Assembly (NCBI GenBank): GCA_016186795.1
Contig: JACPKY010000002.1
Location: 465,044-529,043 of the forward strand
Origin: Candidatus Gottesmanbacteria bacterium
GTDB taxonomy: Bacteria; Patescibacteriota; Microgenomatia; 2-02-FULL-39-11
DNA length: 64,000 nt
Direction: 5' to 3'
The translations under genes were made by a program, and so were the position numbers. The notes under the pieces were generated by a model that worked only from the letters and a program-made list of their open reading frames with translations, was not told where the DNA came from and did not search any database. This document shows positions 615 through 47,368 of this stretch, in pieces. Positions within the stretch are counted from its first letter, which is position 1. Each line of letters starts with the position of its first letter.

Positions 615-2318
615 TTACTCTGCAATTATAATAGCCTTCTCGCCGTTGAGATAGTAAATCGTTTCTTTAATCGCTACTCCTGGTGGAAAATCTCGAGGTA
701 AACCAACATAAAGAATTTTTCCTTCGCTGGGATTTTCAGGGTAGGTAAAATTGCGGAAATAATATTTATCAAAATGATTCCTTTCATCTGCAAATCCTCC
801 AGAGACAGTGCCACCCTGAGCAAGATAGAGAGGTGGAGGATACTTCGTGTAGAAGAGCCAAAACATGTGTGGCATTTCAAGATGGAGAGATACGTAAATC
901 TTTTCATACTCATTTTTGTGACGCTCGGTATATTCCACTGCCTCTTTGCGTCCACTCATCCAAAACTTTGAAAACTCATAGTTTGTATGAACATAATACT
1001 GGTGAAGATAGCTTGCGAGACTAATCACGAATAAAAACGTGATACAGGTAATACCAGTTACTATCGCCCATCGAGATTGCTTTTGAAGTAACATGAAAAC
1101 AACGCTCATACCGAAAGCTGTAAATAGCTGATATGTTGGCAGTATCAACTCTGTACGAACTGCATGGGGAGCTTCCCGAGTGACAGCATTCGTTATTGGA
1201 GCAACTGCCATCCAAAGAAGTGTAAACGCAGAATACCTATTGAATCCTTTCAAAAGGAGGAAAACTATTCCTACAACAAGAAAAGGTAACTCGAGAATAT
1301 ACAAAAGACCAAATCCTGGGGCATGATGAAGGGGTGCATCACCTTTGACGAATAAATACTCAAAGCTGAAATTGGATAGATAATTACCGAGTGCTTTTTT
1401 CAGTGTATCGTAATCGGTATAGATAAGCCGAGCATTATGAAAAATTTTGCCTGCAAAAGCAAATCCTGCATTTTCATCCTTAATTCGTTCTTGTAGGAAC
1501 TGCCGGGGTAGATCTTTTTCATCCAAATACCTCGCACCTGGAGTGAAAATATTCGTCGCGGTAAATCGAATCTGCGCATCTTTGGAGATAAGAATAGGAA
1601 AGACAAGAATGATAAAAAGTATATAAATTGCAAGAAATATGCCAACGATCCTTCTTGGAGGAAGTTTTCTATTAAAAAGGTAAAAAAGGGTAATAAGAAG
1701 AAGTGGAGAAACAACCCGTGTGCTATGATAGGAAAAAAGATCTATTCCAAACAAAAGAGCAGAAATAAAAAAAAGTTTGGGACTAGTAAGACCTCGAAGA
1801 AATAATACTATCGCAGAAATCGTGATAAAAACTGAAACATTTACCTCAAATGCAGCACGGGAGAACTGAAGATGCCAAGGAGAAACCGCAAGAAGAAGAC
1901 TAGAAAGAAGACTAATATAGATGCTATAATTCTTCGTCACGGAGATCTTTGAGAAAATCGTTTGACCCAAAAAAAATGTCATAACGACAGCAAGACTTCC
2001 AAAAACCGCAGATGGCAACCTCGTTGCAAAAGGTGTAAGGCCAAAAATAAAAACTGATGGTACAGTGAGATATTCATAGATTGGTGGTTTGTAGTCATCA
2101 AGGGAGCGAAATGTCGATGGAAGAAATTTCCCAAATTGATCCTTCCCAGTCGTAAGAATTGAATACGCATCATATCCCAAAGCAACCTCATCCCACTCAA
2201 GTGCGAGGGGAGTTTTCCCTAAATAAAAGAGGCGAAGAAGGAATGCGATAATAACAATGCCAAAAAGAATATATCGAGTTTTCACAATTGATATTGTAAC
2301 ATAGAAATAGCCTTGCAA
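615..2318 (-). CDS. Membrane glycosyltransferase, ArnT/PMT (GT39/GT83, PMT_2-like) family
   Basis: 567 aa with about 11 TM segments. The N-terminal region (GKTPLALEWDEVALGYDAYSILTTGKDQFGKFLPSTFRSLDDYKPPIYEYL) is characteristic of 4-amino-arabinose/mannosyl transferases that use polyprenol-P-sugar donors. Confidence 0.65.
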   Translation of the reverse strand: MQGYFYVTISIVKTRYILFGIVIIAFLLRLFYLGKTPLALEWDEVALGYDAYSILTTGKDQFGKFLPSTFRSLDDYKPPIYEYLTVPSVFIFGLTPFATRLPSAVFGSLAVVMTFFLGQTIFSKISVTKNYSIYISLLSSLLLAVSPWHLQFSRAAFEVNVSVFITISAIVLFLRGLTSPKLFFISALLFGIDLFSYHSTRVVSPLLLITLFYLFNRKLPPRRIVGIFLAIYILFIILVFPILISKDAQIRFTATNIFTPGARYLDEKDLPRQFLQERIKDENAGFAFAGKIFHNARLIYTDYDTLKKALGNYLSNFSFEYLFVKGDAPLHHAPGFGLLYILELPFLVVGIVFLLLKGFNRYSAFTLLWMAVAPITNAVTREAPHAVRTELILPTYQLFTAFGMSVVFMLLQKQSRWAIVTGITCITFLFVISLASYLHQYYVHTNYEFSKFWMSGRKEAVEYTERHKNEYEKIYVSLHLEMPHMFWLFYTKYPPPLYLAQGGTVSGGFADERNHFDKYYFRNFTYPENPSEGKILYVGLPRDFPPGVAIKETIYYLNGEKAIIIAE

Positions 2319-2321
2319 AGC

Positions 2322-3236
2322 TTAACTTTTGAATATCTCCAGTATTTTTTGATCATCTATTTTCCAAAGTTTTGAAAGTAGCTTCCGACTTTCAACAACT
2401 TCTGGGAGTTTCTTGATCGCCTCAATAAAACCCGCAAGATGAGCTCTATTTCTTCTCATAAGTGACTTCAAAAGATGAATTGGTAAAAAAAGAATATGTT
2501 CAAAAAGTAATTTTCTATTAGAGATATTTAACCAGACAAATAAGTATTGATTTCTATATACAATACAATTTACCTGAAAAGGCGAATAGACTGTACGAAT
2601 TATGCTTTTATTTTGATCGTGAAAAATGACACATTCAGGATCAAAGCGTATGGAAAATCCAGATTTTAACGCTCTATACGAAATATCAACATCCTCCCAG
2701 TAGAAAGGGCTGTACAACGGGCAAAGTCCACCTAATTTCGTCCAAATATTTTTCCGAAACATTCCGGCTCCACCAAAAACCCACAGTGTCTTATTTGATC
2801 GTACATCCCCTTTTCTATGCAAGAAAAAACCTTTTTCAAAAAAACCAATACCGCTTCCCTCCTCTACGATTTCATCACCAATGTTTGTCTTTTGGAGACA
2901 GCCAACTCCAAAAAGAGAAGGGTCATCGAAATGACGACTGAGTTTCTCAAGAATCTCGTTTTGAAAATATGCGTCGCTATTGAGTAAAAAGATAAAGTCT
3001 CCAGATGCAGCTTGAAATCCATCATTCACGGTCATGGGAAAACCGAGGTTTTGTTGATGTTTGATAAGGTGAACCTGGGGAAACTTTTTTTCTAACAAAA
3101 AAATACTCCCATCAGTTGAAGCATCGTCGACAACTATTATTTCGGCGCTCTGACTATATTTCAAAACATTTGGAAGATGACTTTCCAGTAGTTTCTCACC
3201 ATTGTAATTTGGAATAACAATACTAATTGTTTTCAT
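2322..3236 (-). CDS. Glycosyltransferase family 2
   Basis: N-terminus ISIVIPNYNGEKLL...IIVVDDASTDGS (GT2 DXD-type fold). Its TGA stop overlaps the next start. Confidence 0.75.
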   Translation of the reverse strand: MKTISIVIPNYNGEKLLESHLPNVLKYSQSAEIIVVDDASTDGSIFLLEKKFPQVHLIKHQQNLGFPMTVNDGFQAASGDFIFLLNSDAYFQNEILEKLSRHFDDPSLFGVGCLQKTNIGDEIVEEGSGIGFFEKGFFLHRKGDVRSNKTLWVFGGAGMFRKNIWTKLGGLCPLYSPFYWEDVDISYRALKSGFSIRFDPECVIFHDQNKSIIRTVYSPFQVNCIVYRNQYLFVWLNISNRKLLFEHILFLPIHLLKSLMRRNRAHLAGFIEAIKKLPEVVESRKLLSKLWKIDDQKILEIFKS

Positions 3237-5533
3237 ATGAGATGATTATGAAACTCAACAATATGTTCTCCGTTAGGCACAACTACTCCTCTGAAGGTAA
3301 AATTGATTCGGAGCATTTCACTGCGAAATCCATCAACTGAGACTTGCCATGTAGGATAATACGGATCAGTGAAAACTAAAAGAGCTCTCGCACTTACCTT
3401 AACACGAATACGGATAACGTTTGGCTCATATGAAACGATTACCGTCTGATCTGTGGATACATTTTGAGGAGATTCTAAAAGAATATCTTTTTCAACAACT
3501 GCAACATTTCGAAGGTTCTTACCAAGCTTATACATTTTCTCCATCGAATCCTTCTTTCCACTTGCTACAACTGTGGAGTAAACGATAAATGCTCTCGGAA
3601 AAGCATTCGTATTTCTGTACACATACGTCTCCCCCTCCTTAAAAACTAATTCCAATGAAGGAGACTGTATTTTCTGAAGGCTGAGAATGTATCCTATGCC
3701 TAATAAATTGCCTAAGAAATGTTCGTAATTTTGCGGAGTCAGAATTCTATTGAATGCTCCCGGAGTTATATCCGGAGAATTTCTCTCCCACGCAGCAACA
3801 TATTGCCCATACTCTTGAATATACAAAGGATCGTATCCTGCTACATCAAATATTTTATAGTAAACAGAAAAATTGGGTGGCATTATTCTTCGGTCAATAG
3901 ATTGAATCCGATTAAAAGGTGGGATAGTCTCCAAATAATCTGTAACTTTTGTCCGAGGAAATATCCACTCTCTTTCGGTAAACGGTGTGAATTTCCATCC
4001 AAAACGGAAAAGGTCAAAACCTGTCACCATAATAAGTATGAAAAAAACATGTGTACGATCCACTCTCGGTACTAAAAGAATAAGTGAGGAAAAAATAAAT
4101 AATAGCATTGGAAGGATCGTGTTCCGTTTCGCAATGAGAATCTGACCTTCCGATATACCGAATAGTCCATTTGTAAATCCATATAAAACGGAAAAGACGA
4201 TTAGAAAGAAAATTCCAACAAGGAGAATAATCGATACTATATTTCTTTTATATTTACTCTTTTGGAACTGTTCGATTCCAAAAGCAGCAAGAATGCTCAA
4301 GGCAAAATCAACAATGAAAATAAGTCGAGTCGGTTGAGATGAGGATAGAAATGGAAGATGAAGCGAATATGGAATTGATGAAAGCGGGGTGGGCAACGCA
4401 AATAGAAGAGAAAAAACTGCTAAAAAGCTGAAAAACAATACTCGCTTATTCTTCACGTAGAAGATCGAATAAAGAGCAAAAAGAATTGGAACAATGCCAA
4501 TATATCCCACAAACTCAGCGTAGTTCCAGACTCCCCAGTAGTTTAGTGTTACCGGATTTCCAAAAAAATCAGGAATGAAAAATTGGAGAAGATTCTCCCA
4601 CGGAATAAACCATCCTGGTTTGAGAAAGCTTCCTTGATCAAAATTTCTTGCAGAAAGCGCAATAAACTGTAAAACTGGAATCCAAGAAAATGATGTTATC
4701 AGTATCGCAAGGGTATCTGCACTCAAAAAAGTGATACCTAATTTTCGTAAGGGCCGGTTTGCTTTGTTCTCTTTAAAGAGAAGATACATCTTTGCCAGTA
4801 TATAAAGATGGACAACGATTTGACTGTAAAAAAGTATTTGAAGATGTCCAGCAAGTATTTGAAAAATAGTACCCCCTACAAAGACAAGAAACCATCTCCA
4901 GGTGAATTTTTTGGTGAGTTTCTCAACGGCCAAAAGGATGATGGGCAACCATACCACAACCTGAATTACAGTATTCCATTCAAGCCAAGCAATGGTAAAT
5001 CCAGAAAAGGTAAAAGCAAAAGCACCGAAAAAACTTGAAAGCATCGATAAACGAATACCTCGCAAATAGAGATAGAGGAACACGCTTAAAAGGATTGATT
5101 GGAAAAGTATTTGGATTCCCCAAGAAATATCAAATGGCAATAAAAAAGAAAGAATGTTCATTGGGTAAAACGGTGCTGACTGAATATTTGCCAGAAGCGG
5201 TGTTCCGGAAAAGGAATAAGGATTCCAAAGCGGAAGACTCCCTTTCTTTAACTCCCCTATTGCAAATTTTCTCCATACATATTGTTGCCGAACAGGATCA
5301 GTAATAAGAAAGTTTTTTACGGGTATTCCGCTCTCCCGCAAGTCCCACACCTGATCCTTCCATGGATAGTACATACCGACAATTGTATCTGCCGGTATTG
5401 GAATTTTTCCCCCAAAAATAAGCGGCCAATAAAATGCCAATACTATACTTATAAGAACTGCAACAATATATTTATCCGTTAAGAAGTGTTTCCAGTTTTT
5501 CATGGAATTTGGAGCAAGAAAAATCTTTTGCAC
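3233..5533 (-). CDS. YfhO-family polytopic membrane protein (GT-C type glycosyltransferase, as in LTA/WTA glycosylation)
   Basis: 766 aa. N-terminal motif ...PADTIVGMYYPWKDQVW...FLITDPVRQQYVWRKF...LPLWNPYSFSGTPLLANIQSAPFYP is typical of YfhO; many TM helices; large extracytoplasmic C-terminal domain. Confidence 0.65.
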   Translation of the reverse strand: MQKIFLAPNSMKNWKHFLTDKYIVAVLISIVLAFYWPLIFGGKIPIPADTIVGMYYPWKDQVWDLRESGIPVKNFLITDPVRQQYVWRKFAIGELKKGSLPLWNPYSFSGTPLLANIQSAPFYPMNILSFLLPFDISWGIQILFQSILLSVFLYLYLRGIRLSMLSSFFGAFAFTFSGFTIAWLEWNTVIQVVVWLPIILLAVEKLTKKFTWRWFLVFVGGTIFQILAGHLQILFYSQIVVHLYILAKMYLLFKENKANRPLRKLGITFLSADTLAILITSFSWIPVLQFIALSARNFDQGSFLKPGWFIPWENLLQFFIPDFFGNPVTLNYWGVWNYAEFVGYIGIVPILFALYSIFYVKNKRVLFFSFLAVFSLLFALPTPLSSIPYSLHLPFLSSSQPTRLIFIVDFALSILAAFGIEQFQKSKYKRNIVSIILLVGIFFLIVFSVLYGFTNGLFGISEGQILIAKRNTILPMLLFIFSSLILLVPRVDRTHVFFILIMVTGFDLFRFGWKFTPFTEREWIFPRTKVTDYLETIPPFNRIQSIDRRIMPPNFSVYYKIFDVAGYDPLYIQEYGQYVAAWERNSPDITPGAFNRILTPQNYEHFLGNLLGIGYILSLQKIQSPSLELVFKEGETYVYRNTNAFPRAFIVYSTVVASGKKDSMEKMYKLGKNLRNVAVVEKDILLESPQNVSTDQTVIVSYEPNVIRIRVKVSARALLVFTDPYYPTWQVSVDGFRSEMLRINFTFRGVVVPNGEHIVEFHNHLI

Positions 5534-6533
5534 GCATTGTTGCTTGATATGATAAATCCCTTTGTAAACGAGTGTTATTTACTATTTCAGTCGTTAACCG
5601 TATCAATTCCGAAGGAGTATGCCAGAGATATCCACTCACTCCATTTTCAATAACATCCAATTGTCCCCCAGCGGCAAATGCAAAAGGAATAGCGCCACTT
5701 GCCATCGCCTCAAGTGTTGTAATCCCAAAATGTTCTGCGCGTTCGGGATAAGAACTCAAATCTTCTCCATATCCAGTCGCATGCCAATAAATTGTTGCCT
5801 GTTGATAGTATGATTGAAGAGTAGAAAATGGAACATTTACATGAACCTCAACCGGTAACCCAAGACTTTTCTTTTTCAGTTCTTCAACAATGCGAATTCC
5901 TCCTTTTTCAGAAAGCCCTCCCACGATGATAAATTTCCATCCTGAAAACCCGTGACTTCGAAGTTTTATGAATGCTTCAATAAGAGTATCGTGCTTTTTC
6001 GTATGAGGATGTGGAAAGAATCTACCGACGGTTAATATAATGTTCTTTTTGAGGTTTGATGATATTACTTTTTCCGGTATTTCTATACAGGGAGGAAGTA
6101 CTCTAGCACTTTTTCCTAATCTTTCATAAATGATCTGCTTCATAAATGATGAGTAACAGATAAGTCGCCAATTTCTCATTTTGAATTGTTGAAAAAAAGA
6201 AGTAGAGGGCATGTGCGAAGGAGACTGGATGATAAGAAAATTCTTCCGAGATCCGGGATAAAAAATGCTTCCGTCTGTCATGTAGAAAAAGACATCGAAA
6301 GCAGAGGTCATCTGAAAGCGCGCAAGTAAGTTTTTTCGCACCAGCGAATCTTTGGGTTTTACTAGTACTCCTTTTAATGAAATACGGAAGGCATCTTCTG
6401 CAAGGGAAAGAGTTTGGTGGTCAGAAAAAAGGATCACTTCATGATCATTGGAAAGAAGTGATGCAATAGTCAAAAAGTACTTTTCTCCGCCACCCAGAAT
6501 GGAAAGGTAGGGAGAATACATGCCGATCTTCAT
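5472..6533 (-). CDS. Glycosyltransferase family 4 (GT-B fold)
   Basis: C-terminal EX7E-like region ...FGITTLEAMASGAIPFAFAAGGQLDVIENGVSGYLW. Start trimmed to the internal ATG (MKIGMYSPYLSILGGGEKY) that forms an ATGA overlap with the upstream TGA; the ORF track extends to 6584. Confidence 0.75.
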   Translation of the reverse strand: MKIGMYSPYLSILGGGEKYFLTIASLLSNDHEVILFSDHQTLSLAEDAFRISLKGVLVKPKDSLVRKNLLARFQMTSAFDVFFYMTDGSIFYPGSRKNFLIIQSPSHMPSTSFFQQFKMRNWRLICYSSFMKQIIYERLGKSARVLPPCIEIPEKVISSNLKKNIILTVGRFFPHPHTKKHDTLIEAFIKLRSHGFSGWKFIIVGGLSEKGGIRIVEELKKKSLGLPVEVHVNVPFSTLQSYYQQATIYWHATGYGEDLSSYPERAEHFGITTLEAMASGAIPFAFAAGGQLDVIENGVSGYLWHTPSELIRLTTEIVNNTRLQRDLSYQATMRAKDFSCSKFHEKLETLLNG

Positions 6534-7294
6534 GATCTCATTGAAATAAAACCGTGTCTTAGGCTTTTGTGCTGCTTTTCCCAAAGTTTTGCATATGTAA
6601 TAAACATACTATACGCTTGATATATTGCCTCAATAAGACCATATGTCCCTGCTTTCCATCCTCCATTCACCCAGAAAGACTGCCAAAATGCTACTATCAT
6701 CACCCGGATAAATCTCCACCATGAAATCGGTGGATGATTATTCTTATACCGAAGTCTTGCCTCAATCTCCGACCACTCGTTCGTCTTTTCAACCATAGAG
6801 TGCAATTTTTCGTGAGTGTAGTGAAGAAGAAGAGAGTCGAGACTACCCACTTTTCCAATAACTATCGGAGTTTCATGAAGACTTCCCTGCCAACCTAAGA
6901 GAGCACCTTTTCGTATAAGACGAATCATCCGTTCAGGACTTCCCCAAATTTTTCCGAAAAAATAATTTTGGCGAAGGATCTCAAATGCTGAAAACTTCGT
7001 TTTTTGGATCGCTTGTTGCATCTCGGCAATCAAACCATCTGAGGGCCGTTCATCCGCATCAACATAGAATAGCCATTCGGAGGTTGCCTTTTCTTTTCCA
7101 ACGTTACGAAGGTACGAAAAATCAACTCCGGGAATTCGAAACACCTGAGCTTTGGAAGTTTTGGCAATTTGGGCAGTTAAATCCGAGGAATCATTATCAA
7201 CGACAATAACCTCACGGGCAAACGAAAGCTTACGAATACAACTTTCAATATTTGCCGCTTCATTGCGTGTAATAATAATGGCACTTATACTCAT
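6530..7294 (-). CDS. Glycosyltransferase family 2
   Basis: ISAIIITRNEAANIESCIRKL...VIVVDNDSSDLT...FYVDADER (GT2 DXD); resembles LPS-core/teichoic-type GT2 enzymes. Confidence 0.75.
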   Translation of the reverse strand: MSISAIIITRNEAANIESCIRKLSFAREVIVVDNDSSDLTAQIAKTSKAQVFRIPGVDFSYLRNVGKEKATSEWLFYVDADERPSDGLIAEMQQAIQKTKFSAFEILRQNYFFGKIWGSPERMIRLIRKGALLGWQGSLHETPIVIGKVGSLDSLLLHYTHEKLHSMVEKTNEWSEIEARLRYKNNHPPISWWRFIRVMIVAFWQSFWVNGGWKAGTYGLIEAIYQAYSMFITYAKLWEKQHKSLRHGFISMRS

Positions 7295-10759: not shown

Positions 10760-10763
10760 CCTA

Positions 10764-13953: not shown

Positions 13954-13970
13954 ATGGTTTTACTGCTATA

Positions 13971-15741: not shown

Positions 15742-15748
15742 ATCATCC

Positions 15749-17595: not shown

Positions 17596-17597
17596 TG

Positions 17598-22678: not shown

Positions 22679-24153
22679 TGAGCTATTCCAACAACTTGGT
22701 AAAAAAGAAGATACGTATCTCCCCCTCCCCGACGGTATTTTGCCAGAAGTTTAAGTGGCCAACTTTCTGGTATTTTCTGCTTTTCTTTAAAAACTAAATA
22801 TGTTGGATAACTTTGTGCTTTTAGAAGAAGTTCAGCCGGCACTTCTGAAACCGGCCAATACCCATAGATTTCAATATTTGGGTTTGATTTTAGATAGATT
22901 TCAAATACAGCCGGAAATAATCCAAAAGTACCTTCCGTTCCGATTACAACTTTACCGTATTTCGATTGTTGATCAAGAAATGAAACAACTTCCCTTACAC
23001 CATAACCGGATGGCCAATCATCCATAAGCTGATTTCGATCGTTTTTCGGAATATCTGCCTTCACAGGGTCAGTAATAAGAAGAAAGCTGTCAATGAGAGG
23101 ATAGACAATAATAAGTGAGAAAAAAAGAATCCGAACTATTTTTTTCTTTTTCAATATCTCAAGTATGGAAAAGAATTCATTTGCTCCAATAATAAGAAGT
23201 GGATACGACATGAAAAGTAAAAATCTAGGGAATATAACTTTCCCAAATGCAGCAAGGAAAACAAATGGTATAAAAAACCAGAAAAAGAGATAGAGTAAAG
23301 CTTTATCCCGCTTATAGAAACCAATAACAATACCTAAAAAGATAAGAATACTTATAGGAATTGTTAGGTAACCGAAAATCCACGGAATAAGACCGTGGAG
23401 ATTTGAAACAAAAAGAGAGAAGGGATTTTGCAAAAACTCACTAATGGTCAAAACAAACGAATAGTTCTTTTGCCGAATGAGATAAAACCATGGGGAAAGT
23501 CTTAACAGATTATACATAAGTTGAACAATCAGAATTGAAATAAGAGAAAGACCAATAAATTTGAGAATTCCTTTCCCTCTATTTGATGTATGCTTAGGAA
23601 AAAGAAGATAGGCTAACGGGAGATTAAAAATGAAAAAAAATGCAGATGATTTTGTTAGTGCTCCAAAACCTGAAACTATCCCCAGAAGGAGTGCAACATC
23701 AAGCCGTAACTTTTTGGCAAGAAAGATAGATAAGAAAATACTCCATATCCCAAACATTCCAAGCAAACTATCCATGAGTGCCAGACGATCATAGACAAGG
23801 GTAAAAGGAGAAAGAAGATAAAAAAGGGCAGACAGTATCCCAACGGTTCTTCCAAAAAGTACTTTTCCTACAAAATACATGCCAATACATGCAAAAGATG
23901 CGGCAATTACTGAAACCATCCGTCCCGAAACGAGAGGATCGGAGAAAATTGGCAGAAGTGGGTACATGAACCAGGTAAGAAGTGGCTGCTTTCCATCTGT
24001 CAATGCAATAAACCGATGTGCTGGATCGGCAAGTCCAATCTGTGCCCACCGGATATAAATTGCTTCATCGGTAAATATTGGGATAGAGAGAAGATTTCCG
24101 ATGCGGGTGAGAAATGTCAGCACAAAAAATCCGATTGCAATAGCGAAATCCAT
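22675..24153 (-). CDS. ArnT-like (GT83) membrane glycosyltransferase
   Basis: FTDEAIYIRWAQ...GKQPLLTWFMYPLL...SGRMVSVIAASFACIGMYFVGKVLFGRTVGILSALFYLLSPFTLVYDRLALMDS is a classic ArnT signature. Start trimmed to MDFAIAIGFF (ATG 24151-24153); the ORF-track N-terminal extension to 24411 is not protein-like. Confidence 0.65.
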   Translation of the reverse strand: MDFAIAIGFFVLTFLTRIGNLLSIPIFTDEAIYIRWAQIGLADPAHRFIALTDGKQPLLTWFMYPLLPIFSDPLVSGRMVSVIAASFACIGMYFVGKVLFGRTVGILSALFYLLSPFTLVYDRLALMDSLLGMFGIWSIFLSIFLAKKLRLDVALLLGIVSGFGALTKSSAFFFIFNLPLAYLLFPKHTSNRGKGILKFIGLSLISILIVQLMYNLLRLSPWFYLIRQKNYSFVLTISEFLQNPFSLFVSNLHGLIPWIFGYLTIPISILIFLGIVIGFYKRDKALLYLFFWFFIPFVFLAAFGKVIFPRFLLFMSYPLLIIGANEFFSILEILKKKKIVRILFFSLIIVYPLIDSFLLITDPVKADIPKNDRNQLMDDWPSGYGVREVVSFLDQQSKYGKVVIGTEGTFGLFPAVFEIYLKSNPNIEIYGYWPVSEVPAELLLKAQSYPTYLVFKEKQKIPESWPLKLLAKYRRGGGDTYLLFYQVVGIAQ

Positions 24154-24173
24154 GGTTCTTTGTATTATAGCAT

Positions 24174-25362
24174 TTATGCCTGTTTGATATGGTATTTCCG
24201 CAGGAAAGATTTGATGAGGTACATACTCATAAACACAAGAGGTACCCAAAATAATATATCTTGGATTCGGGCTGTTTGAAGTGAATAATCTCCGATCAGA
24301 AGATATGGAATATATCGCAAAAGTGAAGAGATACTTATAGTTGTAATAAATAGTATCGAATTTCGCGTTGGGAGAAGGGCAAGAATACCAATGAGCATGA
24401 CAAAATACCATGGATACGGCTCCCTGATATATATCTCATACCCGATTCCGATACCAAGCATTATCAAAGCAAGATACATATAAGTTTTAAACGTCAAAGA
24501 TTTACGCATTATCAAAGAAAGAAAAAGCGGTAGAGCAGGCAGGAATGTTATGAATTTCACACCAATTGAAAGAAGCATAAACCCAATCGCCAAAATTTTC
24601 CTCTCAACCACAAAGAATACATAGAGAGAACCGAGGAGAAAAAAGAGCATCAATGATTCATTATGAGGACTCACCAACGTCTCAATAAGAATAAGCGGAT
24701 TTAAGGCAAAGAGGATGAGTCCACGATATGCTTGTTTTGGTGATATTTTTTTCAAAATTTGATACGTCAATAAACTATTTCCGAGGTACGCTAGTATAAA
24801 TAGGAGTTTAAAAAACACAAATGTCAAAACAAATTTTCCACTCCCTATGAAAGAAAAAGGGAGCGTTACCACTAACCATACCGGTCCGTATGGATAGGTT
24901 CTATGTGTCCAATGCATGAATCTTACCCAAAGATCATCAGGAAACTGAAGAGCTGTAAATTCATACGGATTTAAAGAGTATTTTGTGACAATGCGAGCAT
25001 CAAACATGTAATTAAAAAGGTCGTGGGAAAAAGCTGTATAGGCGAAAAAGAGAATACATGCAGATCCCAAAATTAGTAACTTTAGATCACTTGCAGAAAC
25101 GTTTGAGCGTTTCTCTTTATATAAGATAAGAAAGTAACAGAAAAAAAGGGCAAAGAGAATGAATGCAAAAAGGCTTACTGATAAAAAACGATTGAAATAC
25201 CCAACCCAGAGAAGAAACGATTGAAATGATTGGTACATTGGGTTAGCCCAGAGAGTTAAATTAAGATCCACTTGGGTATAGGAGTAGAGAGAAAGGAATA
25301 GAAGAACGGCAAAATACAAAAGAGGAAAACCGAAGATCCATCTCAAGTTCTTCGAAGTCATA
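24174..25362 (-). CDS. Polytopic membrane protein, possible GT-C (DUF2029/PIG-M-like) glycosyltransferase
   Basis: About 11 TM segments with a conserved loop HDLFNYMFDARIVTKYSLNPYEF...RFMHWTHRTYPYGPVW. The ORF-track start at 25382 is a TTG, so start set to the first ATG (MTSKNL). Confidence 0.45.
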
Positions 25363-25368
25363 TTACTC

Positions 25369-26130
25369 TCAATACCGGCCAAAAAGACTATTGAAGCGTA
25401 TTCGGAGTAAATCCCTTAAACCATCCCAAGAGTCTTTTAAAGGATTGACTCGTCTTGTTTCTTGATAATGCCATTCAACAGGAACTTCTGCGATTTTGTA
25501 CCCAAGTTTTTTGGCAATGTACAGAAGCTCAACATCAAATCCTGCAGTAACAGTTGATCCATGAACAGACGCGCGGGAGTGAAAAACTCGAAGTTTAGGA
25601 ATTATTGTTTGAATAACCCCTTTTCGAAACATTTTAAATCCGCACTGAGTATCGCGAATTCCAAGATTTAATATGATATTACGAAGAAGAATAAATCCCA
25701 TTGCCATGGCATGTCTAAGGAATGGAGCTCCGCGCCTATACGTATCACGAGATCCTATGACAATATCATATCCTTTTGCAAAAAAAGGCAATAACGTACT
25801 TAGTTGATGAATTGGTGTTGCTTGATCAAGGTCAGTAAAGAGAATATATGATCCAGATGCCTCAAGCATACCAGCAAGAACTGTTGCTGCTTTGCCCTGA
25901 TGTTTATTTGAAAGAAGTTTGAAGTGCTTATGATCGGAAAGGAACTCTTTTATGAGTTTCCGGCTCTCATCGAAACTTCCATCATCAACAATCAACACTT
26001 CGTAGCGAAATGATTCTTTCTCAAGGAAATGCGCAACCGTTTCTAGCGCTCCAAGACGGATATTGCGCTCCTCATTGAAACAAGGGATAACAACTGATAT
26101 GTAAATACTATTTGTTGTCATTTTCCTCAC
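25369..26130 (-). CDS. GT2 polyprenol-phosphate sugar synthase (GtrB/DPM1-like)
   Basis: IYISVVIPCFNEERNIRLGALETV...VLIVDDGSFDESRKLI. Confidence 0.75.
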   Translation of the reverse strand: MRKMTTNSIYISVVIPCFNEERNIRLGALETVAHFLEKESFRYEVLIVDDGSFDESRKLIKEFLSDHKHFKLLSNKHQGKAATVLAGMLEASGSYILFTDLDQATPIHQLSTLLPFFAKGYDIVIGSRDTYRRGAPFLRHAMAMGFILLRNIILNLGIRDTQCGFKMFRKGVIQTIIPKLRVFHSRASVHGSTVTAGFDVELLYIAKKLGYKIAEVPVEWHYQETRRVNPLKDSWDGLRDLLRIRFNSLFGRY

Positions 26131-27619
26131 TATAGCGGGTCAAGTGAAAAACCTCCGCTGTTGAAACTTTCCACTCACCCACAATCTGAGCCCTACCAAA
26201 TCCGGCAATTTCCCATAAAGGATGACCCAGCGGTTTGCATACCTTTTCTTCGCAAACCACAAAAAGATCACGGGTTACAGTTTGACGAGTAGGATCAATA
26301 GCTGGATTTTCAATCGTAACAGGCTTATTATTCCACGCTTCCAAGAAATAGCGATAGGCGTGGTCAGAATTCCCTTGGGCAATAAGAGCAAAATTGTACT
26401 TCTGCCCTTTTGTTTTTTCATATATAAACTTGGCCACTTCCCTCGTATTGGCAAGCAAATTATTTGGCTCGGTTTTCAATGGGGATTTCTCGCCATGCGC
26501 AAATGTTAAAAAGATAACAAAAAAAACTACAAGTCCCCTTCCTAAAATATTACTTTTTATTAAAAGGAACGATACTACTCCAAAAAGAAGAAAGGGTAAG
26601 GGAAAGAATGAACCGAGGTAATAATCGTAGATTAATCCTTTGTACACACTTAAAAATCCAAGCCCAACAAATAACCAAATAAATAGAATCGTGCACCCTT
26701 GGAAAAAAATTTGATTTTTTCGGATGTCATTTCGCTTGAGCCAAAAAATTACAAACATTACCAAAACAGCTAATTTTGTAATTCTGGCATCAAAAACAAT
26801 CAATAGTCGCCAGAAAATACGGATAAATACATCAAGAAATGTTTCCCCCCACAATGGTAACGTAGGAGATTGACTGGAATTTTTCCCCTCTAAAAAGAAT
26901 CGAAAAATTCCGTTGATATTCACAAATTGATGACGAAACTCAAAAAGTAAAAAAGGAGAATAGGAAAGTAAAAAAGAGAGAAAACCAAATCCTAACACAC
27001 GTACTGAAAAGCGGGATCGATAAAAAACGAGAATAATGAAAATTATAGGAAGAAAAACAAATGTCACGTAATGCAACTGCAGTAAAACTCCCAAACTAAA
27101 TCCAGCAATAATGAACCAATTTTTTTTATTTTGGATAACCACTTTACTGAGGGAGTACATTAAAAGTAGTGCGAAAAATGGAACAATATTTGGATTCCAA
27201 GAAGATCTCCCATACAAAATAGTCAATGGTGAAGTAGCGTAAAAGAACGATGAAAGAAGTCCAACTGAGGGGTGGAAAAATTCAGAACCGAACCGGTAAA
27301 GAAGAAAAATGGTGGCGAGTGAAAAAAATACCACCATTACAGCCGGACCAACGGGATCAAGCTGCCACGCCCATAAAAATGGGACCATAAAGTAATAGTA
27401 AATAGGTCCCATGTAGACAGAGCCGACACTTGTAATTGGTCCAAGAAGAGTAAATTCATGATCTACAATTATACGCTTGACCACTAAGACATCTCTTCCT
27501 TCATCACCTAAAAATGTTATGTACTCTGGGAGCCGATAGAGTCGAAAAATCGCTCCGGTAACGAGAATGAAAAAAAGGAGCATGAAAGACAGATACTGTC
27601 TTTTTATTGTGGTATTCAT
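26108..27619 (-). CDS. ArnT/PMT-like GT-C membrane glycosyltransferase
   Basis: RLYRLPEYITFLGDEGRDVLVVKRI...GPITSVGSVYMGPIYYYF...SPLTILYGRSSWNPN; ArnT-family arrangement with multiple TM segments. Confidence 0.6.
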   Translation of the reverse strand: MNTTIKRQYLSFMLLFFILVTGAIFRLYRLPEYITFLGDEGRDVLVVKRIIVDHEFTLLGPITSVGSVYMGPIYYYFMVPFLWAWQLDPVGPAVMVVFFSLATIFLLYRFGSEFFHPSVGLLSSFFYATSPLTILYGRSSWNPNIVPFFALLLMYSLSKVVIQNKKNWFIIAGFSLGVLLQLHYVTFVFLPIIFIILVFYRSRFSVRVLGFGFLSFLLSYSPFLLFEFRHQFVNINGIFRFFLEGKNSSQSPTLPLWGETFLDVFIRIFWRLLIVFDARITKLAVLVMFVIFWLKRNDIRKNQIFFQGCTILFIWLFVGLGFLSVYKGLIYDYYLGSFFPLPFLLFGVVSFLLIKSNILGRGLVVFFVIFLTFAHGEKSPLKTEPNNLLANTREVAKFIYEKTKGQKYNFALIAQGNSDHAYRYFLEAWNNKPVTIENPAIDPTRQTVTRDLFVVCEEKVCKPLGHPLWEIAGFGRAQIVGEWKVSTAEVFHLTRYSEENDNK

Positions 27620-27656
27620 GTAAAGAAACCTTTATTTACGGTTATCGAGAAAATAC

Positions 27657-28778
27657 TTATCTCCAAATGAAGTGGTTGTATGCAAAGTAACTATATGGTA
27701 CCACGAGAAAGATGATCGACAAAACCATAAAGGTGAACCATGTTGAGGGACCAAATAGTGTTATTCCTGCTTTTACCGAAACGAATTGGATAAGAATTGC
27801 ACCAAAAGCTACACCATTAAAATGTATAAATTTCGAAAGTATTCGTCTTCCAGTAATGCGCTTATGAGAAAACGTCCAGAGGTTATTAAAGAGAAAATTT
27901 GAAATTATTGCACTTTCAGCTCCAACTGATACTGCGATACTCGGATCAACTCGAAAGACTGTTAGTGTCTTGGCGATAACAGTTTGAATTGTAAATCCCG
28001 TACCACCGACTATAACGTATTGGAAGAAACTCTTTGAACGATCTGCCCGAATTAGAAAACTACTCAAAATATATTCAACGACATCTCGAAAGTAGTGCTT
28101 ATTGAAACCGATTTTTGATTTTCCCCGTTTCCGTTCGTGAAAAACTGCAGGCACTTCTACAAATCGTGCTCCAGTTTTTGAAAGTTCATATAAAATTCTT
28201 AGTTGAAAAGAAAATCCCACATCCTTCATCCGCGAAAGAGGTATTTTATCCAAAACACCCTTTACCCGAATAGCTTTAAAGTTACCGGCGTGATCACGAA
28301 CCTCCTTAACTCCTGCAATCCACCATGCCAGAAATGTGTTGGATATTTCATGGTTAATACGTCGGAAAATGTTCCATCCAGACGTATTCCCTCCAGTCAC
28401 ATGCCGAGATGCAACTACCACGTCATATCCTTCTTGTATTTTTTTCACAAGCCGCGGGTAATCTTTTGGATCCCATTGAAAATCAGCATCATTTGGTATA
28501 ACAATATCAGCATTCAACTTTCTCATTGCATATTCAAAACCGGCAACGAGAGCACTTCCTAGTCCTACTTTCTTTTTCGAAAGTAAATACACTTTCCCCT
28601 CAAAACGCTTCTGGTATTTTTTGATAACCTCAGAAGTCCCATCTGGTGATGAATCGTCTACAACCAGAATCGACGTCTTCCATTGAGGATAGTTTTTTCC
28701 AATATGGAAAATTTCCTCAATCATAAGCCCTATATTTTCCTTTTCATTAAACGTTGGAATAATATGGACGATGTTCAT
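27657..28778 (-). CDS. GT2 polyprenol-phosphate sugar synthase fused to a C-terminal GtrA-like membrane domain
   Basis: N-terminus IVHIIPTFNEKENIGLMIEEI...ILVVDDSSPDGT (GT2). C-terminus FFQYVIVGGTGFTIQTVIAKTLTVFRVDPSIAVSVGAESAIISNFLFNNLWTF is the GtrA family signature. Confidence 0.75.
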   Translation of the reverse strand: MNIVHIIPTFNEKENIGLMIEEIFHIGKNYPQWKTSILVVDDSSPDGTSEVIKKYQKRFEGKVYLLSKKKVGLGSALVAGFEYAMRKLNADIVIPNDADFQWDPKDYPRLVKKIQEGYDVVVASRHVTGGNTSGWNIFRRINHEISNTFLAWWIAGVKEVRDHAGNFKAIRVKGVLDKIPLSRMKDVGFSFQLRILYELSKTGARFVEVPAVFHERKRGKSKIGFNKHYFRDVVEYILSSFLIRADRSKSFFQYVIVGGTGFTIQTVIAKTLTVFRVDPSIAVSVGAESAIISNFLFNNLWTFSHKRITGRRILSKFIHFNGVAFGAILIQFVSVKAGITLFGPSTWFTFMVLSIIFLVVPYSYFAYNHFIWR

Positions 28779-29734: not shown

Positions 29735-29760
29735 GATTTACAAATATTGGGGGAAAACCT

Positions 29761-30735: not shown

Positions 30736-30738
30736 GTG

Positions 30739-33916: not shown

Positions 33917-33918
33917 AC

Positions 33919-38290: not shown

Positions 38291-38305
38291 CTTTGTATTC
38301 CGAAA

Positions 38306-39637: not shown

Positions 39638-39659
39638 TTCTGACTATTCACCTCCTTTT

Positions 39660-47365: not shown

Positions 47366-47368
47366 TAT

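What the first reader, a model, noticed from the sequence alone, without database searches (positions are those of the whole stretch)
615..28778. Exceptional density of GT-C membrane glycosyltransferases paired with polyprenol-phosphate sugar synthases and GtrA (multiple Gtr-like three-component modules)
Within ~28 kb on one strand I count at least ten polytopic GT-C-type proteins: ArnT/PMT-like with the HPPLGK or ArnT core motifs, YfhO, and a tandem paralog pair 19342-22678. More lie at 44482-51495 and at 1-599.
- They are interleaved with four DPM1/GtrB-like GT2 enzymes (15749, 18623, 25369, 27657), the last fused to GtrA.
- The locus also holds a Wzx flippase and nucleotide-sugar genes for dTDP-rhamnose and UDP-xylose.

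Established Gtr/YfhO/ArnT/PMT biology is that a GT2 makes a polyprenol-P-sugar, GtrA flips it, and a GT-C transfers it extracytoplasmically to LTA, LPS or proteins.
- So many distinct GT-C acceptor-specific transferases in one locus imply an elaborate, possibly branched, extracytoplasmic glycosylation of surface polymers or proteins.
- The adjacent TP-linker proteins are classic PMT-type O-glycosylation substrates.
Basis: partly seen in the sequence, partly recalled or inferred. Interest (0 to 1): 0.65.

Follow-up and report, generated by a model that had tools for sequence, protein, structure and literature searches.

The report
GT-C-rich surface-glycan locus, Gottesmanbacteria
A tiny-genome groundwater bacterium (Candidatus Gottesmanbacteria, Candidate Phyla Radiation) has a ~52 kb block of sugar-making genes with 13 membrane glycosyltransferases that act outside the cell; the block is shared by its relatives and gives a concrete handle on the still-unknown cell envelope of this group.

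Summary
In 615-28778 I count nine GT-C-type membrane glycosyltransferases, not ten or more. ORF 9077-10759 is a secreted protein with one TM segment. Four more GT-Cs lie at 44482-51495, and a degenerate copy lies at 1-599.

Each GT-C was tested by Pfam, profile-profile comparison or AlphaFold plus Foldseek. Four mutually related small GT2 enzymes best match DPMS/GtrB/ArnC polyprenyl-phosphate sugar synthases. Only one carries a GtrA-type domain, and that is the normal archaeal-DPMS architecture. dTDP-rhamnose, UDP-GlcA and UDP-xylose genes are confirmed.

The organism is a Candidatus Gottesmanbacteria bacterium. The density is not peculiar to this genome: 27 related metagenomic loci carry 5-8 GT-Cs per ~22 kb. 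They share a cassette of polyprenyl-P synthase, Wzx, three GT2, GT4, YfhO and GT2, followed by tandem PMT_2 paralogs. That cassette resembles the Lactococcus lactis PSP pathway.

Best reading: a lineage-conserved envelope-glycan super-locus running several polyprenyl-monophosphate-sugar/GT-C pathways. The acceptors, polymer or protein, are unknown. O-glycosylation of the TP-linker proteins is plausible but untested.

Verdict: a new variant of a known kind, of moderate interest.

The parts
1..599 (-). N-terminal 199 aa of a 303-aa degenerate PMT_2-like GT-C paralog. It lacks the first extracytoplasmic loop with the D-E motif and the C-terminal domain. The gene continues beyond the window start.
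   Evidence: hhalign to the 615 family: 98.5%, E 3.6e-15, with a gap over the D-E loop. Gene call in L008; a 549-aa PMT_2 protein follows outside the window.
615..2318 (-). GT-C, PMT_2/ArnT-like (W42-D43-E44 after TM1).
   Evidence: PMT_2 E 6e-4. 39 of 39 family members hit PMT_2. The family profile's top PDB hit is ArnT 5ezm, E 0.0016.
2322..3236 (-). Cytoplasmic GT2 glycosyltransferase (conserved cassette member).
   Evidence: Glycos_transf_2 E 2.2e-22. Present in 34 of 36 related loci.
3233..5503 (-). YfhO-family GT-C (756 aa).
   Evidence: YfhO E 2.7e-22. NCBI names it 'YfhO family protein', MBI2617158.1. 80 orthologous loci found.
5472..6584 (-). GT4 (GT-B) cytoplasmic glycosyltransferase.
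   Evidence: Glycos_transf_1 E 3.3e-23.
6530..9080 (-). Three consecutive cytoplasmic GT2 glycosyltransferases (6530-7294, 7291-8229, 8181-9080).
   Evidence: Glycos_transf_2 / Glyco_tranf_2_3 hits. Conserved order in related loci.
9077..10759 (-). Secreted 560-aa protein of unknown function. It has one N-terminal TM/signal segment and is not a GT-C.
   Evidence: No Pfam, NCBIfam or PDB match. One TM segment. Orthologs in L005, L013 and L014.
10764..12203 (-). Wzx/MOP-family flippase.
   Evidence: Polysacc_synt_3 E 4.5e-52. MOP flippase E 2.4e-32.
12161..13381 (-). Short PMT-like GT-C (D87-D88, EHPPLGK at 111-117) with no C-terminal soluble domain.
   Evidence: PMT E 1.2e-3. hhalign A5 vs A4: 97.1%, E 7e-11. 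Motifs.
13588..13953 (-). 121-aa SAM-methyltransferase-like fragment.
   Evidence: Methyltransf_11/23, E about 1e-5, partial model coverage.
13971..15341 (-). GT-C of the STM0557/GtrC-like family (D47-D48 in the numbering of the longer ORF 13971-15383 used; D33-D34 in this gene call and in alignment A7).
   Evidence: PF19528 E 4e-6, now named GT_STM0557_N. hhalign A7 vs A4: 97.7%, E 2e-12.
15334..15741 (-). Cupin-domain protein (candidate sugar isomerase/epimerase).
   Evidence: Cupin_2 E 1.1e-16.
15749..16474 (-). Polyprenyl-phosphate sugar synthase-like GT2 (241 aa, no TM segment).
   Evidence: Top PDB hit P. furiosus DPMS 5mlz, E 8.7e-23, then GtrB and ArnC. Top NCBIfam hits AglJ, PgfS and ArnC.
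16471..18626 (-). Two SDR nucleotide-sugar epimerases/dehydratases (16471-17595, 17598-18626).
   Evidence: Epimerase and GDP_Man_Dehyd hits. dTDP-glucose 4,6-dehydratase-like, E 1.5e-56, below the curated cut-off.
18623..19381 (-). Polyprenyl-phosphate sugar synthase-like GT2 (252 aa, no TM segment).
   Evidence: top hits PgfS, AglJ, ArnC.
19342..22678 (-). Tandem paralog pair of PTPS_related GT-Cs (19342-21063 and 21050-22678), each with an H-D motif after TM1.
   Evidence: PF10131 E 2.6e-8 and 7.7e-14. 28% identity, E 3e-49. hhalign A6 vs A4: 97.2%.
22675..24153 (-). GT-C, PMT_2 family (T-D-E motif).
   Evidence: PMT_2 E 8.3e-15. 492-aa gene call.
24174..25361 (-). GT-C of the MptA/MptB (polyprenyl-P-mannose-dependent mannosyltransferase) family.
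   Evidence: TIGR03459 E 6.6e-15 and MptB E 3e-10. Precomputed PF26314 MptA_B_family.
25369..26121 (-). Polyprenyl-phosphate sugar synthase-like GT2 (250 aa, no TM segment).
   Evidence: PgfS E 5.8e-22, ArnC E 3.6e-16.
26108..27619 (-). GT-C, PMT_2 family (G-D-E motif).
   Evidence: PMT_2 E 8.7e-10. NCBI names it 'glycosyltransferase family 39 protein'.
27657..28778 (-). Archaeal-type DPMS-like synthase: GT2 catalytic domain plus a GtrA/DPMS TM domain.
   Evidence: Pfam GT2 plus GtrA_DPMS_TM. Near full-length alignment to 5mlz, E 5.6e-33.
28775..32031 (-). UDP-xylose synthase (28775-29734), Rmd-like GDP-6-deoxy-4-hexulose reductase/dehydratase (29761-30735) and UDP-glucose 6-dehydrogenase (30739-32031).
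   Evidence: Human UXS1 E 5e-106. 2pk3 E 1.6e-84. TuaD-like E 1e-161.
32028..35147 (-). rmlD, rmlB, rmlC, rmlA (dTDP-L-rhamnose pathway).
   Evidence: RmlB scores 472.9 bits, above its curated cut-off.
36404..38392 (-). Secreted protein with about 200 aa of TPTPTE repeats, a LamG domain and an LTD domain (candidate glycosylation substrate).
   Evidence: Pfam. S/T/P-rich windows (at least 60% in 30-aa windows) first at residue 87 and last at residue 540, with the LamG domain between the TP tracts.
38532..39194 (-). Sortase.
   Evidence: Sortase E 3.4e-19.
39143..43265 (-). Three secreted or surface proteins: a TP-rich 145-aa protein with a C-terminal TM segment, a 769-aa Pro/Asn-rich protein with a C-terminal TM segment, and a 398-aa Asn-rich repeat protein (5.5 N-x-S/T per 100 aa).
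   Evidence: No Pfam hits.
44482..45639 (-). GT-C, PIG-V/Gpi18-like (Mannosyl_trans2) family.
   Evidence: Homologs at E 1e-24 to 1e-17 carry PF04188.
45728..47365 (+). GT-C-like protein of an unclassified family (W31-x-D33-E34 invariant).
   Evidence: 523 representatives, no Pfam hit. hhalign A3 vs A4: 92%, E 6e-7 over the N-terminal catalytic region.
47369..48922 (-). GT-C-fold protein of a family seen only in Gottesmanbacteria, with no Pfam family.
   Evidence: 43 homologs. AF2 pLDDT 93.3. The top 19 Foldseek hits are STT3/PglB/AglB, E down to 1.4e-9, followed by DPY19, AftA and ArnT.
49045..49596 (-). Small secreted Asn-rich protein with 8.2 N-x-S/T sequons per 100 aa.
   Evidence: z 3.4 against shuffles. 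Orthologs occupy the same position in L089 and L090.
49954..51495 (+). GT-C-fold protein of a Microgenomates-wide family, with no Pfam family.
   Evidence: 333 homologs. AF2 pLDDT 92.9. The top 10 Foldseek hits are all GT-C (STT3, PglB, AglB, AftA).
51500..52903 (-). Secreted subtilase with a C-terminal TPTPT tail (candidate substrate).
   Evidence: Peptidase_S8 E 1e-50. S/T/P-rich 391-464.

Best explanation
**What it is.** A lineage-conserved envelope-glycan 'super-locus' of a Candidatus Gottesmanbacteria (Microgenomates, CPR) bacterium. It runs several polyprenyl-monophosphate-linked glycosylation pathways side by side.

**How it most likely works.**
1. Cytoplasmic enzymes supply dTDP-L-rhamnose (RmlABCD), UDP-GlcA (Ugd), UDP-xylose (UXS) and further 6-deoxyhexose nucleotides (the Rmd-like enzyme, two SDRs and a cupin).
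2. Four anciently diverged DPMS/GtrB/ArnC-type GT2 enzymes load single sugars onto polyprenyl phosphate at the inner face of the membrane.
3. In the conserved cassette (synthase, Wzx, three GT2, GT4, YfhO, GT2), a lipid-linked oligosaccharide is probably built by the five cytoplasmic GTs. Wzx flips it and the YfhO-type GT-C transfers or polymerises it outside. This follows the logic of the Lactococcus lactis PSP pathway.
4. The other GT-Cs each use a flipped polyprenyl-P-sugar to add one residue or linkage to the growing surface polymer, to surface proteins, or to both. These are the PMT_2, PTPS_related, GtrC-like, MptA/B-like and PIG-V-like proteins and three unclassified families.

**Shown versus inferred.**
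- Shown: gene content, family or fold membership, and conservation across relatives.
- Inferred: the donors, flipping of the monosaccharide carriers (only one GtrA-type domain is present), the pairing of each synthase with its GT-Cs, and the acceptors.
For: - **GT-C membership.** All 13 membrane proteins tested positive by Pfam, family-wide Pfam, homolog annotation, profile-profile comparison, or AF2 plus Foldseek.
- **Catalytic motif.** All have an acidic motif directly after TM1 and K/R-rich N-termini.
- **Synthases.** The four GT2 enzymes are mutually related at 23-33% identity. Each has a ~60% ortholog in L005. Their best matches are polyprenyl-P sugar synthases.
- **Sugar supply.** Nucleotide-sugar enzymes were identified.
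- **Conservation.** The locus is collinear with a Gottesmanbacteria MAG over about 20 kb at roughly 40-80% amino-acid identity. The cassette recurs in 29-36 metagenomic loci, with 5-8 GT-Cs per ~22 kb.
- **Precedent.** C55-P-oligosaccharide plus Wzx plus GT-C, and three- or four-component systems, are described in PMC9574508 and PMC8035078.
Against: - No initiating phosphoglycosyl transferase, Wzy, LCP ligase, rhamnan ABC transporter or GacJ/WpsB-like activator is present in the window.
- Three synthases lack TM segments, and no separate GtrA is present.
- All four synthases score far below NCBIfam equivalog cut-offs, so their sugar and lipid specificity is unknown.
- In this window the synthase is separated from Wzx by four genes, unlike in most related loci.
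- There are no biochemical data for any CPR glycan.
Confidence: 0.6

Rival explanations
1. The GT-Cs are mainly protein O-glycosyltransferases (PMT-like). They would decorate the Thr/Pro-rich linkers of the secreted and sortase-associated proteins encoded next door.
For: - At least five GT-Cs are PMT/PMT_2-like with a D-E or D-D first-loop motif.
- Four neighbouring secreted proteins have long S/T/P tracts.
- GtrB plus a GT-C O-glycosylates Ser/Thr-rich disordered regions in streptococci (PMC11092751, abstract seen).
Against: - PMT_2 is also the family of ArnT and many glycopolymer-modifying enzymes. The 615-family profile hits ArnT rather than PMT in the PDB.
- The cassette with Wzx and five cytoplasmic GTs points to an oligo- or polysaccharide product.
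- Thirteen GT-Cs and four donors are far more than linker O-glycosylation needs.
- Co-location of TP-linker proteins with the locus was seen in only a few genomes.
Confidence: 0.2
2. Mycobacterium-like logic. A major envelope heteropolymer is assembled largely outside the membrane, residue by residue, by the GT-C array from polyprenyl-P-monosaccharide donors, as for arabinogalactan and LAM. The tandem PMT_2 paralogs would supply different linkages.
For: - An MptA/B-family member and a PIG-V-like member are present.
- There are many distinct GT-C families but few donors.
- Related loci carry arrays of 1-5 tandem 615-like paralogs.
- AftA and AftD are among the structural neighbours.
Against: - No Emb/Aft-type large GT-Cs and no decaprenyl-P-arabinose or PRPP pathway genes are present.
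- The cytoplasmic GT cassette with Wzx argues that at least part of the polymer is pre-assembled inside the cell.
- The variable copy number and the degenerate copy fit decoration or diversification better than an essential backbone.
Confidence: 0.15
3. The right-hand sub-locus (44482-51495) is a protein N-glycosylation-like system. Orphan GT-Cs whose closest structural neighbours are oligosaccharyltransferases would modify the Asn-rich, sequon-dense secreted proteins encoded between them.
For: - The top 19 Foldseek hits of 47369 and the top 8 of 49954 are STT3, PglB or AglB.
- 49045-49596 and 42069-43265 have 8.2 and 5.5 N-x-S/T sequons per 100 aa (z 3.4 and 2.3).
- Gene order and sequon density are conserved in two other Gottesmanbacteria contigs.
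Against: - There is no WWDxG motif and no STT3 Pfam hit. Family-invariant residues in the C-terminal domains differ from those of OSTs.
- TM-scores to OSTs (0.5-0.6) are only modestly above those to ArnT and AftA.
- Sequon excess can be a by-product of Asn/Ser/Thr-rich structural repeats.
Confidence: 0.1
4. The membrane proteins are not glycosyltransferases but, for example, transporters, and the apparent GT-C density is an annotation artefact.
For: - Five proteins have no Pfam hit on their own.
- Several Pfam hits are below gathering cut-offs.
Against: - Every candidate links to established GT-Cs by independent methods.
- Transporters appear only at Foldseek probability 0.1 or below.
- All candidates keep the acidic first-loop motif.
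Confidence: 0.02

Closest known systems
Lactococcus lactis cwps/PSP 'complex multicomponent glycosylation system' (WpsA/B, WpsC-F, Wzx-type WpsG, GT-C WpsI/WpsJ) together with rml genes
   Same: - A GtrB-like GT2 next to a Wzx flippase, several cytoplasmic GTs and GT-C-fold transferases in one co-directional cluster.
- rmlABCD nearby.
- Use of polyprenyl-monophosphate-linked donors is the expected logic (PMC9574508).
   Different: - No WpsB/GacJ-like activator, no WpsH/Wzz-like protein and no RgpCD ABC-transporter rhamnan genes in the window.
- The GT-C here is YfhO-type.
- There are 13 GT-Cs and 4 synthases, against 2-4 GT-Cs.
- The organism is a CPR bacterium.
Three-component Gtr / CsbB-GtcA-YfhO systems (O-antigen, LTA and WTA glycosylation)
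   Same: - GtrB/CsbB-like GT2 enzymes adjacent to GT-C proteins, including a bona fide YfhO and a GtrC-like (STM0557-type) protein.
   Different: - There is no stand-alone GtrA/GtcA.
- The only GtrA-type domain is the TM domain of a DPMS-type enzyme.
- Three synthases are TM-less.
Arn pathway (Ugd, ArnA decarboxylase, ArnC, ArnT)
   Same: - The gene run Ugd, an Rmd-like SDR (29761-30735), UDP-GlcA decarboxylase (UXS), polyprenyl-P sugar synthase and PMT_2/ArnT-like GT-C at 26108-32031 has the same order of chemistry: a UDP-GlcA-derived pentose is loaded on a lipid and then transferred by a GT-C.
   Different: - No ArnB aminotransferase, formyltransferase or ArnD/E/F is present.
- The decarboxylase is a UXS (to UDP-xylose), not ArnA.
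- There is no lipid A in CPR, so the acceptor must differ.
Mycobacterial/corynebacterial envelope GT-C set (Ppm1, Pmt, MptA/B, PimE, Aft, Emb)
   Same: - Many different GT-C families are fed by a few polyprenyl-P-sugar donors.
- An MptA/B-family member is present.
- A TM-less synthase catalytic domain recalls Ppm1 and human DPM1 (own knowledge).
   Different: - The genes are clustered rather than dispersed.
- There are no Emb/Aft homologs and no arabinose pathway.
- The genome is only about 1.1 Mb.
Oligosaccharyltransferases STT3/PglB/AglB
   Same: - They are the closest solved folds for 47369 and 49954.
   Different: - No WWDxG motif, no STT3 Pfam hit, and a much smaller C-terminal domain. 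These proteins are not members.

Membership tests
GT-C superfamily (membrane glycosyltransferases using lipid-linked donors) | Polytopic membrane protein with roughly 8-13 TM helices | tested here: met
   A Kyte-Doolittle scan gives 6-10 strong TM segments for all 13 candidates. The AF2 models of 47369 and 49954 show all-helical TM bundles plus a small C-terminal domain.
GT-C superfamily (membrane glycosyltransferases using lipid-linked donors) | Acidic (modified DXD) motif in the first extracytoplasmic loop after TM1 | tested here: met
   WDE, DD, HD(D), TDE, GDE, FD, NDE, DxWD or DSD follows directly after TM1 in all 13. These residues are invariant in family alignments A1-A7. The degenerate copy at 1-599 lacks the motif.
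GT-C superfamily (membrane glycosyltransferases using lipid-linked donors) | Sequence, profile or fold similarity to an established GT-C | tested here: met
   Pfam and NCBIfam. PF04188 on homologs. hhalign 92-98%. Foldseek top hits are exclusively GT-C.
GT-C superfamily (membrane glycosyltransferases using lipid-linked donors) | Transfers sugar from a polyprenyl-(P or PP)-linked donor outside the membrane | not testable with these tools
   This needs biochemistry.
Polyprenyl-phosphate glycosyltransferases (DPMS/GtrB/ArnC-type GT2) | GT-A catalytic domain whose closest characterised relatives are polyprenyl-P sugar synthases, with a DXD motif | tested here: met
   For 15749, all 7 PDB hits are DPMS, GtrB or ArnC. 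27657 aligns with 5mlz at E 5.6e-33, with DAD aligned. Top NCBIfam hits for all four are AglJ, PgfS and ArnC, although all fall below equivalog cut-offs.
Polyprenyl-phosphate glycosyltransferases (DPMS/GtrB/ArnC-type GT2) | Membrane anchoring by C-terminal TM helices (GtrB, ArnC, archaeal DPMS) | tested here: not met
   This is met only by 27657. 15749, 18623 and 25369 have no TM segment. They would be DPM1/Ppm1-catalytic-domain-like (own knowledge).
Three-component Gtr-type system | A separate GtrA-family 4-TM flippase gene in each module | tested here: not met
   The only GtrA_DPMS_TM hit in the window is the C-terminal domain of 27657. The gene packing leaves no unassigned small membrane ORF.
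Three-component Gtr-type system | GtrB-like GT2 adjacent to an acceptor-specific GT-C | tested here: met
   27657|26108, 25369|24174-19342 and 15749|13971. The same adjacency occurs in L005.
Protein O-mannosyltransferases (PMT, GT39) | PMT/PMT_2 domain with a D-E motif in loop 1 | tested here: met
   22675, 26108 and the 615 family.
Protein O-mannosyltransferases (PMT, GT39) | MIR domains in loop 5 (eukaryotic PMTs) and a protein Ser/Thr acceptor | tested here: not met
   No MIR hit in any protein. Bacterial PMTs also lack MIR (own knowledge), so this does not exclude the function. The acceptor is not testable here.
YfhO family | Pfam PF09586 above the gathering score | tested here: met
   79.4 bits against a cut-off of 28.5 for 3233-5533.
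Oligosaccharyltransferase STT3/PglB/AglB | WWDxG motif in the C-terminal domain and an STT3 family signature | tested here: not met
   There is no Pfam hit at all. No WWD is present in the sequences or among family-invariant residues. Only fold-level similarity is seen.
L. lactis PSP-type complex multicomponent system | GtrB-like initiator, cytoplasmic GTs, Wzx and GT-C in one cluster | tested here: met
   Window 615-16474. In 29 related loci a synthase sits directly upstream of Wzx.
L. lactis PSP-type complex multicomponent system | GacJ/WpsB-type small activator, and a rhamnan backbone made by an ABC-transporter pathway as acceptor | tested here: not met
   Neither is found in the 64 kb window. 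The only ABC ATPase is FtsE. The rest of the genome was not examined.

The most novel reading that the evidence does not exclude
The conserved sub-locus runs subtilase, GT-C(49954), small Asn-rich secreted protein, GT-C(47369), GT-C(45728), GT-C(44482) and further Asn-rich proteins, ending at the sortase. It could encode a previously unknown protein N-glycosylation-type system in Microgenomates. Orphan GT-Cs whose nearest solved folds are oligosaccharyltransferases, but which lack the WWDxG motif, would glycosylate sequon-dense surface proteins that form the outer coat of these ultra-small cells.
Probability: 0.1. Interest if true: 0.8.

Novelty: new variant of a known kind. Interest (0 to 1): 0.45.

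Why it matters
**The open question.** The structure and biogenesis of the CPR/Patescibacteria cell envelope are explicitly described as unclear (PMC5220378). These episymbiotic bacteria depend on surface contact with hosts.

**What this locus offers.**
- In a ~1.1 Mb genome, about 52 kb, or roughly 4-5% of the genome, goes to one glycan locus with 13 GT-Cs.
- The locus is conserved across Microgenomates, so its product is probably a major envelope component.
- The work defines a conserved cassette and three GT-C families with no Pfam model: the 45728, 47369 and 49954 families.
- These give concrete targets for heterologous biochemistry, glycomics and structure work.
- They also provide markers for comparative genomics of CPR surfaces.

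**Limit.** The finding does not overturn any principle. The enzymology is expected to follow known polyprenyl-phosphate/GT-C rules.

Tried and rejected
**Searches that gave nothing useful**
- NCBIfam on ten membrane or secreted proteins gave nothing except MptA/B for 24174.
- Profiles A1, A2, A3 and A5 against PDB sequences gave no meaningful hit.
- The Pfam scan of 42 members of the 45728 family gave only one weak YfhO hit.
- hhalign of A3 against A1 and A2 was inconclusive, at 28% and 16%.
- ORF 9077-10759 has no Pfam, NCBIfam or PDB relative. I rejected it as a GT-C because it has a single TM segment.
- Literature searches for CPR, Gottesmanbacteria or Patescibacteria together with GT-C, glycosyltransferase or mannosyltransferase found nothing specific.

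**Ideas considered and rejected**
- That the 27657 'GT2-GtrA fusion' is a special flippase fusion. It is the standard DPMS architecture.
- That 12161 or 24174 are Wzy or O-antigen-ligase-like. They link instead to the PMT and MptA/B families.
- That the density is unique to this genome.

Full report
**Origin and layout**

The window has about 39% G+C. Exact protein matches place it in 'Candidatus Gottesmanbacteria bacterium' (NCBI locus tags HYW55_, longest contig 1,118,283 bp). It also matches Logan assemblies of SRR12113420-24.

From 615 to 44342 every gene is on the minus strand, with overlapping or near-abutting ends. The glycan-related block runs from before the window start to about 51.5 kb. 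Beyond it lie housekeeping genes: subtilase, TsaB/Sua5/TsaE, PcsB-FtsEX, PrfB and Nramp.

**Checking the GT-C count**

A hydropathy scan finds ten polytopic proteins in 615-28778. One of them is the Wzx flippase. The other nine are GT-C-type:

| ORF | Family | Evidence |
|---|---|---|
| 3233-5533 | YfhO | E 2.7e-22 |
| 22675-24411 | PMT_2 | E 8e-15 |
| 26108-27619 | PMT_2 | E 9e-10 |
| 19342-21114 | PTPS_related | E 2.6e-8 |
| 21050-22678 | PTPS_related | E 7.7e-14 |
| 24174-25382 | MptA/MptB | TIGR03459 6.6e-15, MptB 3e-10, PF26314 |
| 13971-15383 | PF19528, now GT_STM0557_N | |
| 615-2318 | PMT_2 | E 6e-4, sub-threshold |
| 12161-13381 | PMT | E 1.2e-3, sub-threshold |

- The two PTPS_related proteins are true tandem paralogs (28% identity, E 3e-49).
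- Three assignments rest on sub-threshold Pfam hits (615-2318, 12161-13381, and 13971-15383 at 26.2 bits against a cut-off of 27), so I strengthened them with family alignments built from 80 related metagenomic loci.
- All 39 members of the 615 family hit PMT_2 (best 4.5e-16). The family profile finds ArnT (5ezm) as its only meaningful PDB match.
- Three other families align to the 615 family by hhalign at 97.1%, 97.2% and 97.7% probability: the 12161, PTPS_related and 13971 families.
It is a secreted protein, not a GT-C.

**GT-Cs outside the stated interval**

- The ORF at 1-599 is the start of a 303-aa protein. It aligns to the 615 family (98.5%) but lacks the whole first extracytoplasmic loop with the D-E motif, so it is a degenerate copy. 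A further 549-aa PMT_2 gene lies just outside the window.
- None of 44482, 45728, 47369 and 49954 has a Pfam hit.
- 44482: homologs carry PF04188, the PIG-V/Gpi18-like mannosyltransferase family.
- 47369: the family was found only in Gottesmanbacteria (43 hits). It gave an AF2 model with pLDDT 93.3. Its top 19 Foldseek PDB hits are STT3/PglB/AglB (E down to 1.4e-9), followed by DPY19, AftA, ArnT and AftD.
- 49954: the family is Microgenomates-wide (333 hits). It gave pLDDT 92.9, and its top ten hits are all GT-Cs.
- 45728: the family has 523 representatives and no Pfam or PDB sequence hit. It aligns to the N-terminal catalytic region of the 615 family at 92% probability (E 6e-7), including the invariant W-x-D-E.
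- All 13 full-length proteins have K/R-rich N-termini and an acidic motif directly after TM1.
- The total is therefore 13 GT-Cs plus one degenerate copy in about 52 kb.

**The GT2 enzymes**

- Four small GT2 enzymes (15749, 18623, 25369, 27657) form one group at 23-33% mutual identity. They are distinct from the four other GT2 enzymes in the locus.
- For 15749, all seven PDB hits are polyprenyl-phosphate glycosyltransferases: P. furiosus DPMS at 8.7e-23, then GtrB and ArnC.
- 27657 aligns almost end to end with DPMS 5mlz, including the TM domain (E 5.6e-33). The 'fusion to GtrA' is therefore the normal archaeal-type DPMS architecture; the Pfam model itself is named GtrA/DPMS TM domain.
- The top NCBIfam hits for all four are AglJ, PgfS and ArnC, but far below equivalog cut-offs. 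The enzyme class is supported; the sugar is unknown.
- Three of the four have no TM segment, and there is no other GtrA-type gene in the window.

**Nucleotide sugars**

- RmlB scores 472.9 bits, above its curated cut-off. RmlA and RmlD have clear top NCBIfam hits; RmlC rests on its Pfam dTDP_sugar_isom hit.
- Ugd is TuaD-like (E 1e-161).
- 28775 is a UDP-glucuronate decarboxylase, that is, a UDP-xylose synthase (E 5e-106 to human UXS1).
- 29761 resembles Rmd, a GDP-6-deoxy-4-hexulose reductase (E 1.6e-84).
- Two further SDRs and a cupin sit between two of the synthases.
- The run Ugd, Rmd-like SDR, UXS, DPMS-like synthase and PMT_2 GT-C mirrors the chemistry order of the Arn pathway. This comparison is an inference.

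**Comparative genomics**

- A Gottesmanbacteria MAG (L005) is collinear with the window from RmlD to the 9077 homolog at roughly 40-80% identity. L006 has the same gene set rearranged.
- Among 36 YfhO-anchored metagenomic loci of at least 15 kb, a cassette recurs in 29-35 loci. Its order is: synthase, Wzx, GT2, GT2, GT2, an optional second YfhO, GT4, YfhO, GT2, synthase, then 1-5 tandem 615-like PMT_2 paralogs.
- The 27 loci of at least 20 kb carry 5-8 GT-C homologs each (median 6; 2.8 per 10 kb). The window has 3.2 per 10 kb.
- The density is therefore a lineage trait, not a peculiarity of this genome.
- The right-hand sub-locus (subtilase, GT-C, small Asn-rich protein, three GT-Cs and further genes up to the sortase) is also conserved in two other Gottesmanbacteria contigs.

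**Candidate substrates**

- 36404-38392 has about 200 aa of TPTPTE repeats plus LamG and LTD domains.
- The subtilase has a TPTPT tail, and 39143 and 39660 have P/T-rich N-terminal tracts.
- Separately, 42069-43265 and 49045-49596 are Asn-rich repeat proteins with 5.5 and 8.2 N-x-S/T sequons per 100 aa (z 2.3 and 3.4 against composition-matched shuffles). Their orthologs keep this property.
- Whether any of these proteins is glycosylated cannot be decided from sequence.

**Mechanism**

- The best-supported model is a multi-pathway envelope-glycan locus.
- Cytoplasmic enzymes make dTDP-Rha, UDP-GlcA, UDP-Xyl and other 6-deoxyhexose nucleotides.
- Four diverged DPMS/GtrB-type enzymes make polyprenyl-P-monosaccharides.
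- The conserved Wzx cassette builds and flips a lipid-linked oligosaccharide, which a YfhO-type GT-C transfers or polymerises. This follows the L. lactis PSP scheme described in PMC9574508.
- The remaining GT-Cs add individual residues outside the membrane.
- Shown: family or fold membership, gene order and conservation.
- Inferred: donors, flipping, pairing and acceptors.
- Against a strict 'three-component Gtr' reading stand the single GtrA-type domain and the TM-less synthases.
- Against a strict lactococcal reading stand the absence of GacJ/WpsB, WpsH, an ABC-transporter rhamnan pathway and an LCP ligase within the window.

**Novelty**

- NCBI already labels some of these proteins 'glycosyltransferase family 39 protein' or 'YfhO family protein'.
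- CPR papers note abundant glycosyltransferases and rml genes, while stating that the envelope remains unclear.
- I found no paper describing GT-C arrays or this cassette in CPR.
- The enzymology is of a known kind.
- What is new is the scale, the conserved cassette in Microgenomates, the TM-less synthases and three GT-C families without any Pfam model.
- I rate it a new variant of a known kind, of moderate interest.

Noticed in passing
window 42069-43265, 49045-49596 and the central part of 39660-41969 (all minus strand); L089:9316-9900, L089:15614-16819, L090:9284-9889: A family of secreted Asn-rich (16-19% N) repeat proteins with motifs such as TGNNSAxYNTGxG. They carry 5.5-8.8 N-x-S/T sequons per 100 aa, have no Pfam hit, and are conserved in position between orphan GT-Cs in three Gottesmanbacteria genomes.
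   Followed up: partly
window 1-599 (minus strand); L008:20161-21072: A 303-aa degenerate paralog of the PMT_2-type GT-C 615-2318. It retains the TM core but has lost the catalytic first loop and the C-terminal domain. This suggests turnover within the tandem GT-C arrays, which vary from 1 to 5 copies in related loci.
   Followed up: partly
window 9077-10759 (minus strand): A 560-aa secreted protein between Wzx and the GT2 genes. It has no detectable family and has orthologs in L005, L013 and L014.
   Followed up: partly
window 13588-13953 (minus strand): A 121-aa ORF that matches only the N-terminal part of SAM-methyltransferase domains. It is preceded by the only sizeable intergenic gap (207 bp) in the block. 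It may be a truncated gene or a mini-methyltransferase.
   Followed up: no
window 39143-39580 and 39660-41969 (minus strand), next to the sortase at 38532-39194: Both proteins end in a TM helix plus a basic tail, like sortase substrates, but lack LPxTG. 39143 has GLSATG and its L089 ortholog has GLSNTS just before the helix. This may be a non-canonical sorting motif.
   Followed up: no
L006 (CAYMIE010000001.1): The record is titled 'uncultured Gammaproteobacteria bacterium' but carries the same CPR-type gene set (PMT_2, PTPS_related, YfhO, Wzx, synthases) at 25-48% identity. The taxonomic label is probably wrong.
   Followed up: no
window 52896-53321 (minus strand); L089:5681-5998; L090:5525-5842: The TsaB/TsaD-family gene between Sua5 and the subtilase is only about 105-141 aa and matches only positions 29-84 of the 264-position model. 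The short form is conserved in relatives, so it appears to be a minimal TsaB.
   Followed up: no
L015, L018, L019, L024, L025 and many others: Most related loci carry two YfhO paralogs flanking the GT4 gene, whereas this window has one. Several also have extra YfhO copies on the opposite strand.
   Followed up: no
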